DNA of 20,000 nucleotides, from IMG/VR virus record IMGVR_UViG_3300027687_000007; one strand, written 5' to 3'. Below are positions 9,007-13,679 of the stretch, piece by piece. Position 1 is the first letter of the stretch; every line of letters begins with the position of its first letter. Source of the DNA: an uncultured virus (IMG/VR IMGVR_UViG_3300027687_000007) (Duplodnaviria; Heunggongvirae; Uroviricota; Caudoviricetes; Crassvirales). The translations under genes and the position numbers were made by a program. The notes below the pieces were generated by a model. It saw only the letters and a program-made list of their open reading frames with translations. It did no database searches and was not told the DNA's origin.

Positions 9007-9155
9007 TTCACTCTTCACTTTCTCAGTAAAACGCTTATTTTTACGCCGTCCCCAGCCACTTTTCACTCGTTTCACATGTTTTATTAGACATTTTCCTCCA
9101 CATTCCACATAACCTATTCACATTACAATTCACATTCACTCAAAACAATTCACAT
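9007..9155 (+). repeat. Cluster of TTCAC short direct repeats in a G-poor tract (possible ori/packaging/terminus region)
   Basis: TTCAC at 9007, 9014, 9062, 9071, 9117, 9129, 9135, 9149; ACAATTCACAT twice (9125, 9145). Confidence 0.55.
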
Positions 9156-9156
9156 A

Positions 9157-9200
9157 TTTACATACAAAATACTTTCGGTAACAGATAATATAAATGTAAC
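9157..9200 (+). promoter_or_regulatory. Class I putative early promoter, copy 1
   Basis: TTACATACAAAATA-N9-ACAGATAATATAAATGTAAC. Confidence 0.8.
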
Positions 9201-9217
9201 AAACAAACATTAATACT

Positions 9218-9316
9218 ATGTCAAAAGAAAAAATCAGTAACATTATCGGTCTCACTATCACATTTGGTTTCATCATTCCATCACTAATAATAGTAACAAT
9301 CCACATAATGAGTTAG
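9218..9316 (+). CDS. 32-aa single-pass membrane microprotein (MSKEKISNIIGLTITFGFIIPSLIIVTIHIMS)
   Basis: ATG 37 nt after the start of the ACAG box; long hydrophobic stretch. Confidence 0.6.
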   Translation: MSKEKISNIIGLTITFGFIIPSLIIVTIHIMS

Positions 9317-9326
9317 TTATAGTAAG

Positions 9327-9411: not shown

Positions 9412-9455
9412 TTTACAAACAAAATACTATATCAAACAGATAATATAAATGTAAC
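9412..9455 (+). promoter_or_regulatory. Class I putative early promoter, copy 2
   Basis: TTACAAACAAAATA-N9-ACAGATAATATAAATGTAAC. Confidence 0.8.
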
Positions 9456-9470
9456 CAATTAAAACTATAT

Positions 9471-9647
9471 ATTATTAAACTATCAATCAACAAATATCAA
9501 ATCAAAAAAACTATTAATATTCTAACAAATAATCATTACAATATTAAATCTTTAAATAATAAAATAATTATATTATCTCAATATCAAACTAATAATATAA
9601 CTAAATTACTAAATACTAATTATATAATATATAAAATAAATAAATAA
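9471..9647 (+). CDS. Possible G-free ORF with a non-AUG (ATT) start, ~58 aa (IIKLSINKYQIKKTINILTNNHYNIKSLNNKIIILSQYQTNNITKLLNTNYIIYKINK)
   Basis: Frame open 9444-9644, ending TAA TAA TAA; ATT lies at the usual start distance from the promoter; no G in 9452-9671. Confidence 0.4.
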   Translation: MIKLSINKYQIKKTINILTNNHYNIKSLNNKIIILSQYQTNNITKLLNTNYIIYKINK

Positions 9648-9669
9648 TAATAACTTAAATAAATAAACT

Positions 9670-9897
9670 ATGTCAAAATTAAATTCAAAAAGATTCGTCA
9701 TCAGACAATCACTAATCGGAAAAAATCAAATCATTGAAGTAACATTCAAAAATGGAAAATCAGTAACTTATAATCACGATAAAGTGTATGAAGTTATGAA
9801 GTCTAAACTTCAAACTATGAATTGTTTCTTAAAGTATAAATCTTATACATCTTCTACTTCAGTTCCAGTACTCGTCAGAGATTTAATGGAAGTGTAA
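9670..9897 (+). CDS. Hypothetical early protein, 75 aa
   Basis: ORF track; AAATAAACT leader before ATG. Confidence 0.75.
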   Translation: MSKLNSKRFVIRQSLIGKNQIIEVTFKNGKSVTYNHDKVYEVMKSKLQTMNCFLKYKSYTSSTSVPVLVRDLMEV

Positions 9898-9961: not shown

Positions 9962-10002
9962 AGACATAATGGTTAGTAGTGGTTCGATTCCACTCATGTC
10001 TA
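9962..10002 (+). ncRNA. tRNA-like minihelix (acceptor-like stem plus T arm, no anticodon arm)
   Basis: AGACAT/ATGTCT stem; AGTGG-TTCGATT-CCACT T arm; short linker containing TGG. Confidence 0.45.
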
Positions 10003-10042
10003 CAAACAAAATATTATTACTAACAGATAATATATACGAAAT
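9999..10042 (+). promoter_or_regulatory. Class I putative early promoter, copy 3
   Basis: CTACAAACAAAATA-N9-ACAGATAATATATACGAA. Confidence 0.75.
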
Positions 10043-10968: not shown

Positions 10969-11260
10969 TTTAATGATCGCGATAGCGATATCCTTAACAG
11001 GACAAGTAGAAACTAAACTATGTAACTTAAAATGTACTAATCATACTAAAGAAGTCATAAGAGAAACCTCTCCAGATATCATGGAAGATCCTAGATATTA
11101 TGATGGTATTGAAAGCGGTTATATATTATTATGTAACGGTGAAGCTGAAGGATTTACTAACCACAATACAGGTGAAATCTTCTGTGACGGAACTAATCAC
11201 GAGTGTAGCGTAAACAATACGTGTAAAGACGGTGAAGGTGAGTGTTTTGTATGTTATTAA
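10961..11260 (+). CDS. Cys-rich, possibly exported protein (start uncertain: TTG 10961 or ATG 10973)
   Basis: Hydrophobic N-terminus; 8 Cys including a C-terminal CFVC. Confidence 0.65.
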   Translation: MNSLMIAIAISLTGQVETKLCNLKCTNHTKEVIRETSPDIMEDPRYYDGIESGYILLCNGEAEGFTNHNTGEIFCDGTNHECSVNNTCKDGEGECFVCY

Positions 11261-11303
11261 TTACAAACAAAATATCGTGTCATACAGATAATATAAATGT
11301 AAC
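11260..11303 (+). promoter_or_regulatory. Class I putative early promoter, copy 4
   Basis: TTACAAACAAAATA-N9-ACAGATAATATAAATGTAAC. Confidence 0.8.
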
Positions 11304-12365: not shown

Positions 12366-12586
12366 GTAAAATGAGTGAACTAGATCAAATAGCGCAAGGC
12401 GTAGCAGATCACATGAAAGAATTAACGTATGATAGCGTTACATGGCAAATATCAGATCAACCTGTAGACGGTGATAACTTTAACGATCTACATAGTATGG
12501 TAATGAAGAAAGCCGTAGAATATCTATATATAGATGTAGTAATTGGTGGTAAGCAAAATGTTGCAGGTCCATTACAAACAAAATAA
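12362..12586 (+). CDS. Hypothetical protein, 74 aa
   Basis: ORF track; ATGA coupling. Confidence 0.7.
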   Translation: MSKMSELDQIAQGVADHMKELTYDSVTWQISDQPVDGDNFNDLHSMVMKKAVEYLYIDVVIGGKQNVAGPLQTK

Positions 12587-12614
12587 TATCATAATCAGAT
12601 AATATAAATGTAAC
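12571..12614 (+). promoter_or_regulatory. Class I putative early promoter, copy 5 (upstream of the Zn-finger gene and RNA array)
   Basis: TTACAAACAAAATA-N9-TCAGATAATATAAATGTAAC. Confidence 0.8.
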
Positions 12615-13193: not shown

Positions 13194-13667
13194 ATGAGTA
13201 CAAGAAACGTAACTATGGTAGTCCATAGATCAGAATCAGAAAAATATGTCAAAGGTTTTGCAGTTGATCCAAGCGATGTGGCTGACAAAAGCTATGTAAA
13301 CATGTACTTACATCATGACGGTTACCCTGAATACCAAGGTGTTCAAATAGCTAACTGGATAAAGTATATGCAAAATGACAAAGGTTTTACAAACTTTGGT
13401 GATGGTTCAAGAATAGCTTCACACTTGGTTAAAGACATGCATTATAACTCACAATACTTATATCCTAGCGTAGATTTTATCGACCACAATTACACTTATA
13501 TTATATGGGTAGGTAAATCTGACGTATGGGTAAGTTGTTGGAACCAACACACTAACACTTGTGTATTTGTATCAACACCTGATAAGATAATTAAAAAATA
13601 TTCCCGACTAGATACCATGGAATATACAGACTGGAGTTACAAACAAAATAATATAACTAACAGATAA
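13194..13667 (+). CDS. Conserved phage hypothetical protein (YxHxDGYP motif)
   Basis: MSTR N-terminus and MYLHHDGYPE motif, which I recall from phage early proteins of unknown function. Confidence 0.75.
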   Translation: MSTRNVTMVVHRSESEKYVKGFAVDPSDVADKSYVNMYLHHDGYPEYQGVQIANWIKYMQNDKGFTNFGDGSRIASHLVKDMHYNSQYLYPSVDFIDHNYTYIIWVGKSDVWVSCWNQHTNTCVFVSTPDKIIKKYSRLDTMEYTDWSYKQNNITNR

Positions 13668-13679
13668 TATAATAAACAA
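13636..13679 (+). promoter_or_regulatory. Class I putative early promoter, copy 6
   Basis: TTACAAACAAAATA-N9-ACAGATAATATAATAAAC. Confidence 0.75.

What the first reader, a model, noticed from the sequence alone, without database searches (positions are those of the whole stretch)
9452..9671. Natural G-less cassette: 220 nt without a single G, holding an ATG-less ORF right behind an early promoter
Seen: no G on the plus strand from the promoter's 3' end to the G of the next gene's ATG. One frame stays open for 67 codons (9444-9644) despite abundant TAA and ends in TAA TAA TAA. ATT codons at 9471/9474 lie 35/38 nt from the ACAG box, matching ATG distances of 36-39 nt at four sister promoters. 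Known: AUU starts exist (infC) and are IF3-sensitive, and some defence toxins need G (CmdT modifies mRNA at GA; DarT1 modifies guanine). Inference: a G-free mRNA selected to be transcribed without GTP or to escape G-dependent RNA attack. Alternatively it is an unwinding or DNA-entry element.
Basis: partly seen in the sequence, partly recalled or inferred. Interest (0 to 1): 0.8.

Follow-up and report, generated by a model that had tools for sequence, protein, structure and literature searches.

The report
Phage gene written without guanine
A small early gene of an abundant uncultured marine phage, its start codon included, is written using only A, C and T, and selection keeps it that way, although the reason is not yet known.

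Summary
Window 9452-9671 holds no G on the + strand; the next longest G-free run is 89 nt.

It is a complete early transcription unit, not junk or a DNA element. It has a repeated promoter box, a leader of about 20 nt, a 57-codon ORF (9474-9644) and TAA TAA TAA.

- **Family:** 293 protein clusters in public data belong to it, all unannotated.
- **Synonymous G:** G-containing synonymous codons are absent (0 of 470).
- **Window's clade:** 22 distinct sequences from 31 loci have 0 G and G-free runs of 198-226 nt. None has an in-frame ATG, GTG or TTG.
- **Start position:** these 22 carry ATC or ATT exactly where relatives carry ATG.
- **Purifying selection:** 32 synonymous variants against 17.1 expected, and no new stop codons.
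- **Protein:** nine residue types, pI about 10. AlphaFold predicts a ferredoxin-like fold (pLDDT 91).

The host is probably a marine Flavobacteriia with Shine-Dalgarno-independent translation.

Why G is banned is inferred, not shown. I favour a hazard attached to each G in the mRNA, with host RNase Y as the concrete candidate. A structure-free message is a second benefit. GTP-free transcription and a DNA-unwinding role are unlikely.

This scan noted guanine-poor early genes before in other marine phages (e1-5706661, e1-6002068). I found no paper describing it.

The parts
9412..9455 (+). Promoter box (TTTACAAACAAAATAC-N-ACAGATAATATAAATGTAAC). Its last G (9451) is the last G before the G-free tract.
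   Evidence: 5 matches to the box pattern against 0.44 expected, reached in 0 of 200 shuffles. All are on the + strand, each just upstream of a gene start; 80% identical to the copy at 9157-9212. It is not a sigma-70 consensus match and only a partial match to the Bacteroidetes -7 element described in PMC6847099. That it is a promoter, and early, is inferred.
9452..9671 (+). G-free tract of 220 nt: leader, ORF, stop codons and the spacer up to the G of the next ATG
   Evidence: Homologous tracts of 198-226 nt occur in 22 distinct relatives.
9452..9473 (+). G-free 5' leader. The transcription start was not mapped and probably lies between 9449 and 9457.
   Evidence: Inferred from the geometry of the box. 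In 7 of 22 relatives an in-frame TAA lies 4 codons upstream of the start position.
9474..9644 (+). 57-codon ORF with no G. Probable start is ATT 9474 (alternative ATT 9471). It encodes a 6.8-kDa protein of nine residue types, pI about 10.
   Evidence: 9474 aligns with the ATG of L016. ATC or ATT in 22 of 22 sequences, with purifying selection. AlphaFold pLDDT 91.4; composition.
9645..9653 (+). Triple stop TAA TAA TAA
9654..9669 (+). G-free spacer and initiation region of the next gene. In relatives a second promoter box sits here; in the window it is absent.
   Evidence: a 42-column gap in the window opposite the second box of L001, L002, L003, L024, L063, L026, L051 and L023.
9670..9897 (+). 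Next early gene (75 aa, no known family). Its ATG is the first canonical start trinucleotide after the box.
   Evidence: 86 relatives in IMG/VR; 0 ATG, GTG or TTG in 9452-9669.
9157..9200 (+). Sister promoter box 1, upstream of the 33-aa hydrophobic peptide gene 9218-9319
9999..10042 (+). Sister promoter box
11260..11303 (+). Sister promoter box
12571..12614 (+). Sister promoter box
13636..13679 (+). Sister promoter box, short form (ATG 24 nt after the ACAG G)

Best explanation
The tract is a self-contained immediate-early cassette of an uncultured marine phage of about 70 kb, whose host is probably a Flavobacteriia. It consists of a promoter box, a leader of about 20 nt, a 57-codon ORF and a triple UAA.

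The ORF is translated into a small, very basic protein with a ferredoxin-like beta-alpha-beta-beta-alpha-beta fold and unknown function. In the window's clade translation starts at a non-AUG codon: AUU 9474 here, AUC in most relatives.

Selection acts on the transcript, not only on the protein, and excludes guanine everywhere: synonymous sites, both untranslated parts and even the start codon. This confines the protein to the residues that G-free codons can spell (F L I S P T Y H Q N K).

Shown by comparison: it is coding, G is excluded at the nucleotide level, and there is no canonical start. Inferred: why G is excluded. My preferred reading, at about 40%, is that each G is a separate hazard to this A/U-rich, unfolded message, as a site for a G-preferring nuclease or RNA-modifying enzyme. 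The host's decay-initiating RNase Y is the concrete candidate. Loss of all G-C and G-U pairing, which suits ribosome loading in a host that ignores Shine-Dalgarno sequences, would be a second benefit.
For: **Coding**
- The family has 293 clusters at E<=0.01, and 29 representatives at 50% identity in 1.84 billion proteins.
- Relatives start with ATG at, or one codon from, the window's ATT 9474.
- Within the ATG-less clade (22 distinct CDS from 31 loci), variable columns fall 17/10/30 by codon position. There are 32 synonymous variants against 17.1 expected (P=6e-5), and no stop gained against 4.2 expected (smaller set).
- AlphaFold with 77 sequences gives pLDDT 91.4 and pTM 0.76. The fold is ferredoxin-like.

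**G excluded at the nucleotide level**
- G-containing synonymous codons: 0/140 Lys, 0/47 Gln, 0/122 Leu, 0/108 Thr, 0/39 Ser, 0/14 Pro in 18 distinct CDS.
- The G-ending share is 0/264 against 6%, 20% and 15% in other gene classes. C-ending codons persist at 67/408.
- None of the 65 variants in the clade is a G.
- Members that escaped the ban show N>D, I>V, K>R and T>A.
- The constraint is strand-specific: 29 loci plus the window have G-poor segments of 110 nt or more, and none of the 79 sources examined has a C-poor one.
- In a complete relative the 214-nt run is unique; the next longest are 62 and 61 nt.

**Non-AUG start**
- 22 of 22 have ATC (16) or ATT (6) and never ATA. Internal Ile codons are ATT 127, ATA 99, ATC 25.
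- None has an in-frame ATG, GTG or TTG.
- An in-frame TAA lies 4 codons upstream in 7 of 22, and 1 codon upstream in L124.

**A hazard per G**
- Even the start codon's G is gone.
- The number of G in the 200 nt after 165 distinct boxes is bimodal: 17 units have 0-9 G and the rest have 12-43.
- The near-G-free units carry several unrelated ORFs.
- RNase Y scores above its curated cut-off in 4 of 4 Flavobacteriia-type MAGs that hold relatives of this phage.
- S. aureus RNase Y cuts after G at 58% of sites, in A/U-rich RNA (PMC4608709, passages read).

**Unfolded message**
- MFE is -8.8 kcal/mol against a median of -32.7 for 216 windows.
- There is no consensus structure across 18 sequences and no Rfam match.

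**Host type**
- 0 of 31 genes have an SD-like core, and A sits at -3 in 21 of 27.
- The best primase hits are Cellulophaga, Tenacibaculum, Riemerella and Flavobacterium phages.
Against: - There is no transcript or ribosome evidence.
- No G-specific attacker has been identified. The G preference of RNase Y is known from Firmicutes only. It also cuts after A (30%).
- No barnase/T1-type RNase is encoded in 5 relatives.
- One G is widely tolerated: 61 of 145 family proteins carry Asp at residue 41, and 51 of 145 have exactly one G-requiring residue.
- In the window the next cistron on the same strand contains G, so the message as a whole is not G-free.
- Five clade-1-like database proteins (P0043, P0069, P0070, P0087, P0090) carry an in-frame N-terminal Met extension. 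I did not see their DNA.
- The 22 sequences are related, so the binomial P values overstate independence.
Confidence: 0.6

Rival explanations
1. G is excluded only to keep the message unfolded. In Bacteroidia, ribosomes ignore Shine-Dalgarno sequences and load on open, A-rich RNA. A G-free RNA can form only A-U pairs and contains no AUG, GUG or UUG in any frame. The cassette would then be a maximally accessible message and, in the window, also a 218-nt open leader for the 75-aa gene.
For: - The host type fits: 0 of 31 genes have SD-like cores, A sits at -3 in 21 of 27, and A makes up 57% of -20..-4.
- PMC6847099 (passages read) reports an unstructured initiation region and AUG depletion near starts in Bacteroidetes.
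- G is depleted at the 5' end after all 165 boxes: 4.9% in the first 20 nt, rising to 15-17% by 200-300 nt.
- MFE is -8.8 against a median of -32.7, and there is no conserved structure.
- There are 0 canonical start trinucleotides in 9452-9669.
- G-requiring residues are rarest in the first 22 codons of the family.
Against: - Returns should diminish as G falls. This reading does not explain purging the last G, the start codon's G, or the 3' end and spacer.
- Native G-free units fold slightly better than composition-matched shuffles (mean z -1.48 over 24 units), so A-U pairing is not being minimised.
- The G counts are bimodal, not a smooth tail.
- Earlier scan notes, unchecked by me, report near-G-free early genes in T4-like phages with a strong RBS.
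Confidence: 0.3
2. The tract is non-coding in the window's clade. The ATG was lost, the ORF is a decaying remnant, and the G-free stretch now serves only as a leader, an RNA decoy or a Rho-loading (rut-like) region that sets polarity on the downstream gene.
For: - No ATG, GTG or TTG in any of 22 clade members.
- C exceeds G over the whole 220 nt (24 against 0). [quoted passage not shown]
- There is no intrinsic terminator.
- In the window the second promoter is missing, so the tract does precede the next gene.
Against: - Purifying selection on the protein operates inside the ATG-less clade: 32 synonymous variants against 17.1 expected, and 0 stops against 4.2 expected.
- The start-position codon is ATC/ATT only, with a usage unlike internal Ile codons.
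- There are only 11 YC dimers, and no [(YC)N9-13]x4 or x6 array.
- There is no conserved RNA structure and no Rfam match.
Confidence: 0.1
3. The unit is built to be transcribed when GTP is scarce or absent, as a natural counterpart of the laboratory G-less cassette.
For: G is absent from the leader, ORF, stops and spacer, including the start codon. The earliest genes are the G-poorest (9-13% against 17-21%).
Against: - Translation needs GTP for IF2, EF-Tu and EF-G (established knowledge), so a GTP-free transcript could not be used.
- The one conserved G of the box (GTAAC, kept even where ATG is ACG or CTG) sits where initiation is expected.
- The downstream cistron contains G.
- No GTP-consuming 7-deazaguanine pathway marker (TGT/DpdA) was found in 5 relatives, 4 of them complete.
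Confidence: 0.05
4. G-freeness is a by-product: extreme A+T pressure plus a protein that happens to need only N, K, I, L, T, Y, Q and S. Or it is a DNA-level element, such as an unwinding, entry or restriction-site-free region.
For: The region is 89% A+T and lies next to the divergent late/early junction. All G/C-containing palindromic sites are necessarily absent.
Against: - C is kept while G is not: C-ending codons 67/408 against G-ending 0/264.
- The G-poor early genes have a raised C-ending share, not a lowered one (45%).
- The asymmetry is always on the sense strand.
- Variation is codon-phased.
- Family members with ordinary residues exist, so the fold does not require the reduced alphabet.
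Confidence: 0.05

Closest known systems
Omega leader of tobacco mosaic virus (recalled from memory; one search gave only a listing of reviews, none read)
   Same: A natural G-free, A/C/U-rich, unfolded stretch directly after the transcript's 5' end. It is credited with ribosome loading without a Shine-Dalgarno-type signal.
   Different: Omega is a 68-nt non-coding leader of a plant RNA virus. Here the G-free stretch is 220 nt of a DNA phage and is itself a conserved protein-coding gene with a non-AUG start.
Target-site avoidance in phages and toxin-resistant messages, such as restriction-site avoidance and ACA-less mRNAs that resist MazF (recalled; also named as closest known in earlier scan note e1-5706661)
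   Same: The sequence is purged, at synonymous sites too, of what an attacking enzyme recognises.
   Different: What is purged here is a whole base, not a motif. This forces a reduced amino-acid alphabet and costs the AUG. No attacker has been identified.
AUU-initiated genes such as infC (recalled)
   Same: A conserved AUU/AUC codon at the position where homologues have AUG.
   Different: Neither IF3 autoregulation nor any measurement is available. AUC is the majority form (16 of 22). The message offers no competing canonical start for about 220 nt.
Laboratory G-less cassette for in vitro transcription (recalled)
   Same: A promoter followed by some 200 nt without G on the non-template strand.
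   Different: The cassette is artificial, non-coding and used with GTP omitted. Here the tract is natural, coding and conserved, and GTP-free use is unlikely.
Rho utilisation sites / C>G bubbles (PMC6144790, passages read)
   Same: A C-over-G excess on an unfolded transcript.
   Different: C is only 11%, the regularly spaced YC arrays are absent, and the stretch is under protein-coding selection.
Designed reduced-alphabet proteins (recalled)
   Same: A compact fold predicted from 9-11 residue types.
   Different: This one is natural. The alphabet is imposed by the nucleic acid, and the fold is predicted, not solved.

Membership tests
Protein-coding gene (as against non-coding leader or RNA) | Frame kept open in homologues, with codon-phased variation and an excess of synonymous change | tested here: met
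   22 distinct CDS, variable columns 17/10/30 by codon position, 32 synonymous variants against 17.1 expected (P=6e-5), 0 stops against 4.2 expected; the observed open-frame length was reached in 94 of 20000 shuffles.
Protein-coding gene (as against non-coding leader or RNA) | Direct evidence of translation (footprints, peptide) | not testable with these tools
No proteomic data were available.
Non-AUG (AUU/AUC) initiated gene, infC-like | AUU/AUC at the position homologous to AUG, with no other start possible | tested here: met
   ATC 16 and ATT 6 of 22. No in-frame ATG, GTG or TTG. An upstream in-frame TAA lies 4 codons before in 7 of 22, and 1 codon before in L124.
Non-AUG (AUU/AUC) initiated gene, infC-like | Initiation at that codon, and sensitivity to IF3 | not testable with these tools
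   This needs reporter or toeprint experiments.
Ferredoxin-like (beta-alpha-beta-beta-alpha-beta) fold | Order of secondary structure elements and superposition on solved members | tested here: met
   E2-5 H10-19 E24-27 E30-33 H39-48 E53-56, pLDDT 91.4. Z 8.4-7.5 over 56-57 residues to small ferredoxin-like domains (4zoq_A, 6xfu_A, 1fe0_A). This is a predicted model only, and the fold is generic, so no function follows.
Bacteroidia-type SD-independent initiation region | No SD core, an A-rich upstream region, and A at -3 | tested here: met
   0 of 31 genes with an SD-like core, A 57% and G 4.7% in -20..-4, A at -3 in 21 of 27. For ATT 9474 the -3 base is A. The criteria come from PMC6847099.
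Bacteroidetes sigma-A promoter (-7 TAHHTTTG) | Match to the six near-invariant -7 positions, with 4-5 nt to the start site | tested here: inconclusive
   TATAAATG (9444-9451) matches 4 of the 6 near-invariant positions (one search read). The short form of the box lacks this part. It is also not a sigma-70 consensus match.
Rho utilisation site | C>G bubble | tested here: met
   C 24, G 0 over 220 nt.
Rho utilisation site | Regularly spaced YC dimers, [(YC)N9-13]n | tested here: not met
   11 YC dimers, and no run of 4 or 6 with 9-13 nt spacing.
Target-site avoidance against a G-preferring RNA enzyme | The target is absent beyond chance, at synonymous sites too | tested here: met
Target-site avoidance against a G-preferring RNA enzyme | An enzyme of that specificity is present in the host or phage | tested here: inconclusive
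   RNase Y scores above its cut-off in 4 of 4 Flavobacteriia-type MAGs holding phage relatives. Its G preference is documented only for S. aureus. No barnase/T1-type RNase was found in 5 phage relatives. Binning of phage contigs into MAGs is weak evidence of host.
Structured non-coding RNA | Conserved secondary structure or a match to a known family | tested here: not met
   0 consensus pairs in 18 sequences; no Rfam match at E<=1 inside the tract.

The most novel reading that the evidence does not exclude
A class of phage immediate-early genes is written in a three-letter RNA alphabet (A, C, U), down to an AUY start codon. This makes the message invisible to a G-dependent attack on RNA, whether host RNase Y-type decay or G-directed defence toxins. 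The encoded proteins have re-evolved stable folds from the 9-11 residue types that such codons allow. If so, single-base exclusion would be a general counter-measure seen in several unrelated gene families and phage groups.
Probability: 0.3. Interest if true: 0.9.

Novelty: new variant of a known kind. Interest (0 to 1): 0.78.

Why it matters
- **Selection on the nucleic acid over the protein.** This is a natural gene in which selection on the nucleic acid overrides the protein alphabet. It still yields a confidently predicted fold from nine residue types.
- **Non-AUG start.** It gives comparative evidence for AUU/AUC initiation in a host group that selects starts without Shine-Dalgarno pairing.
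- **A testable mRNA feature.** It points to a feature of phage early messages that can be tested directly: stability, or immunity to something that reads G.
- **Abundance.** The family is common in marine metagenomes: 293 clusters, and DNA runs of 14 studies.
- **A natural reduced-alphabet protein.** It is a ready-made subject for protein folding work.

Tried and rejected
- **Near relatives in GenBank phages.** No match for the DNA, the 782-aa protein, the sigma-like protein, the G-free protein or the 75-aa protein.
- **Own assembly.** It is not held. The nearest record, G001, gave no match.
- **Laying reads.** The index shares for RNA runs are not evidence that this gene is expressed.
- **Function of the protein.** No Pfam family, only generic fold matches, nothing from the protein atlas, and no distant homologue of known function among 29 representatives.
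- **Guanine modification of the DNA.** No TGT/DpdA in 5 relatives.
- **Phage T7-type RNA polymerase.** No match, but the control rang nowhere, so this is uninformative.
- **3020-aa protein of relatives.** No PHROG, Pfam or PDB sequence match.
- **Phage-encoded G-specific RNase.** None found.
- **Conserved RNA structure.** None found.
- **Rho array.** Absent.
- **Second G-free family (L041 ORF).** Only one further cluster was found, so the claim of several G-free families rests alone.
- **L078 as an independent ATG-to-ATT case.** Its ATT aligns with the ATG of L010. L078 also looks like a recombinant that carries the first codons of the main family in another frame, so I do not count it.
- **Literature.** Searches for a described natural G-free phage gene found none. 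A search on AUU starts in Bacteroidetes returned nothing relevant.

Full report
**1. The observation.** The + strand of the window has no G from 9452 to 9671, a run of 220 nt (A122 T74 C24). The next longest G-free runs are 89 and 67 nt. The longest C-, T- and A-free runs are 50, 29 and 23 nt. By my own arithmetic, at the window's G share of 17.1% the chance is about 1e-18. At the 11% G of the G-poorest early genes it is about 7e-12.

The frame 9444-9644 is open for 67 codons and ends in TAA TAA TAA. An open frame as long as the 64 codons inside the run arose in 94 of 20000 shuffles and 47 of 20000 Markov simulations.

**2. Setting.** The window is phage DNA.
- Tail-fibre and other late genes lie on the - strand up to 8853.
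- Many small + strand genes begin near 9200. They are followed by DNA ligase, a sigma-like protein, Erf, an exonuclease and a primase/helicase.
- A box of about 44 nt (TTTACAAACAAAATA..ACAGATAATATAAATGTAAC) occurs six times, always on the + strand just upstream of a gene start. The pattern gave 5 matches against 0.44 expected.
- The box does not fit the sigma-70 consensus. It fits the Bacteroidetes -7 element only in part. That it is a promoter, and early, is therefore an inference from position and repetition.

No gene has a Shine-Dalgarno core (0 of 31). The upstream regions are 57% A, and A sits at -3 in 21 of 27 + strand genes. That is the pattern described for Bacteroidetes in PMC6847099. 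The primase's best cultured relatives are Cellulophaga, Tenacibaculum, Riemerella and Flavobacterium phages at 33-45% identity. Of 37 MAG contigs carrying close relatives of the primase, 17 sit in Bacteroidota bins, which is weak evidence. The host is therefore probably a marine Flavobacteriia.

**3. The tract is a gene.** I fetched 78 IMG/VR loci through the neighbouring 75-aa gene.
- 29 of these loci, and the window, have G-poor segments of 110 nt or more on the sense strand. None of the 79 sources has a C-poor one.
- The segments are homologous and encode one small protein family.
- One clade starts with ATG. L016 has ATG exactly where the window has ATT 9474.
- The family has 293 clusters at E<=0.01 in 5.8 billion proteins, all unnamed and without Pfam domains. 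It has 29 representatives at 50% identity in 1.84 billion proteins.

A metagenome scan added 24 loci of the window's own clade. In 22 distinct complete CDS from 31 loci:
- G count is 0 in all, and the G-free runs measure 198-226 nt.
- There is no in-frame ATG, GTG or TTG.
- The start-position codon is ATC (16) or ATT (6) and never ATA. Internal Ile codons are ATT 127, ATA 99, ATC 25.
- An in-frame TAA lies four codons upstream in 7 of 22. In L124, whose ORF is cut by the contig end, it lies one codon upstream.
- Variation is codon-phased (17/10/30). There are 32 synonymous variants against 17.1 expected (P=6e-5), no stop gained against 4.2 expected, and none of the 65 variants is a G.

The sequences are related, so these P values are optimistic. 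The direction of the evidence is nonetheless clear: the ATG-less ORF is still under protein-level selection.

**4. The ban is on the base, not on the residues.** In 18 distinct CDS, no synonymous codon contains G: 0/140 Lys, 0/47 Gln, 0/122 Leu, 0/108 Thr, 0/39 Ser, 0/14 Pro. The background shares are 26, 22, 12, 9, 37.5 and 11%.

| Measure | G-free family | G-poor early genes | Middle genes | Late genes |
|---|---|---|---|---|
| G-ending share | 0/264 | 6% | 20% | 15% |
| C-ending share | 67/408 | 45% | 37% | 32% |
| Residues that need G | 1.2% | 25.5% | 39.5% | 42.3% |

C-ending codons persist in the family, and the C-ending share is even raised in the G-poor early genes. A+T pressure therefore cannot be the cause.

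Of 145 family proteins, 59 have no G-requiring residue in the core, 51 have one (mostly Asp at residue 41) and a few have up to 15. The replacements seen are N>D 77, I>V 35 and K>R 13 (sequences). The fold therefore tolerates ordinary residues, and the G-free lineages have substituted the nearest G-free ones.

**5. The protein.** The window's product has 57 residues of nine types (I13 N12 K9 L6 Y5 T5 S3 Q3 H1), with pI about 10.1. AlphaFold2 with 77 sequences gives pLDDT 91.4, pTM 0.76 and the order beta-alpha-beta-beta-alpha-beta. Structure searches return only generic small ferredoxin-like domains, with a best Z of 8.4. Its function is unknown.

**6. The unit and its relatives.**
- In most relatives a second copy of the box lies between the G-free gene and the 75-aa gene. 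In the window it is absent, so the tract runs straight into the next ATG.
- In L008 and L015 the cassette lies downstream of the 75-aa gene instead, so box plus gene moves as a unit.
- In a complete relative of 71.5 kb the 214-nt run is unique. The next longest are 62 nt on the + strand and 61 nt on the - strand.
- After 165 distinct boxes, G is 4.9% in the first 20 nt and rises to 15-17% by 200-300 nt.
- The number of G in the following 200 nt is bimodal: 17 units have 0-9 and the rest have 12-43.
- The near-G-free units carry several unrelated small ORFs. I followed up only one of them, and it proved to be a rare family.

**7. Why no G (inferred).** The RNA is almost unfolded. Its MFE is -8.8 kcal/mol against a median of -32.7. 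It has no consensus structure and no Rfam match. That suits Shine-Dalgarno-independent ribosome loading and explains the general 5' depletion of G.

An unfolded message alone does not explain everything:
- the purge of the last G;
- the purge of the start codon's G;
- the purge of the 3' end of the unit;
- the bimodality of G counts;
- the finding that native units fold slightly better than their shuffles (mean z -1.48).

A hazard attached to each G explains these better. RNase Y, which in S. aureus cuts after G at 58% of mapped sites within A/U-rich RNA (PMC4608709), is encoded above its curated cut-off in 4 of 4 Flavobacteriia-type MAGs that hold relatives of this phage. This identifies a candidate and nothing more.

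The other readings fare worse:
- **GTP-free transcription** is unlikely, because translation needs GTP and the next cistron holds G.
- **Rho loading** lacks the spaced YC arrays (criteria from PMC6144790).
- **Guanine modification of the DNA** has no marker.

**8. What is left open.**
- I did not see the DNA of five clade-1-like database proteins that carry an in-frame Met extension.
- Supplements of the papers cited were not consulted.

**9. Novelty.** Three literature searches found no description of a natural G-free phage gene. Earlier notes of this scan, which I did not check, report guanine-poor or nearly guanine-free early genes in other marine phages. The phenomenon may therefore be wider than this phage group.

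Noticed in passing
window 9071-9163: Seven copies of (T)YCACAT cluster on the + strand within about 90 nt, just upstream of the first promoter box and inside the 89-nt G-free run 9088-9176. Four of the window's five exact TTCACAT lie here. They may be binding sites for a regulator at the late/early junction.
   Followed up: partly
window 9218-9319: The first early gene encodes a hydrophobic peptide of about 33 aa (MSKEKISNIIGLTITFGFIIPSLIIVTIHIMS). It is only 11% G and has no known family.
   Followed up: no
window 9654-9669 against L001 2920-3000: The window has lost the second promoter box that relatives carry between the G-free gene and the 75-aa gene.
   Followed up: yes
L008 4088-4310; L015 3558-3787: The same box-plus-G-free-gene cassette sits downstream of the 75-aa gene instead of upstream, so it is a movable unit.
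   Followed up: partly
L041 2239-2488, L031 1916-2107, L021 1881-2093, L038 3346-3519, L061 3435-3613, L040 2714-2859: Other small ORFs directly behind the same box are nearly G-free (1-9 G in 200 nt) and unrelated in sequence to the main family. The L041 type has only one further cluster in the protein database.
   Followed up: partly
L078 2577-2863 against L010 2671-2904: L078 has an 88-codon ORF with no Met, homologous to a protein of L010 that starts with ATG. An ATT in an ACTATT context aligns with that ATG. L078 also carries, in another frame, a short ORF that resembles the first codons of the main family, so it may be a recombinant.
   Followed up: partly
L098 10826-19888 (- strand; record G002): Complete relatives encode a 3020-aa protein with no PHROG, Pfam or PDB sequence match. 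Whether it is a virion enzyme that reads the conserved box is untested.
   Followed up: partly
L088 and L089 (one 69.4-kb contig): One contig holds two places that encode the G-free protein, both at 80% identity to the query, near 68.7 kb and 7.0 kb. This is either a duplication or a repeat across the ends of the contig.
   Followed up: no
L126-L162: Contigs of this phage group are binned into MAGs of many unrelated taxa. Ten of the 37 are in a single 'Aliivibrio' MAG, and others are in Nitrosopumilus, Shapirobacteria and Desulfobacterales bins. This looks like binning contamination, so their host labels should not be trusted.
   Followed up: no
window 9449-9454 and the other long-form boxes: The long form of the box ends in ATG TAA, a start-stop pair. 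The ATG is ACG or CTG in several relatives while GTAAC is kept, so the conserved feature is the G and not a start codon.
   Followed up: partly
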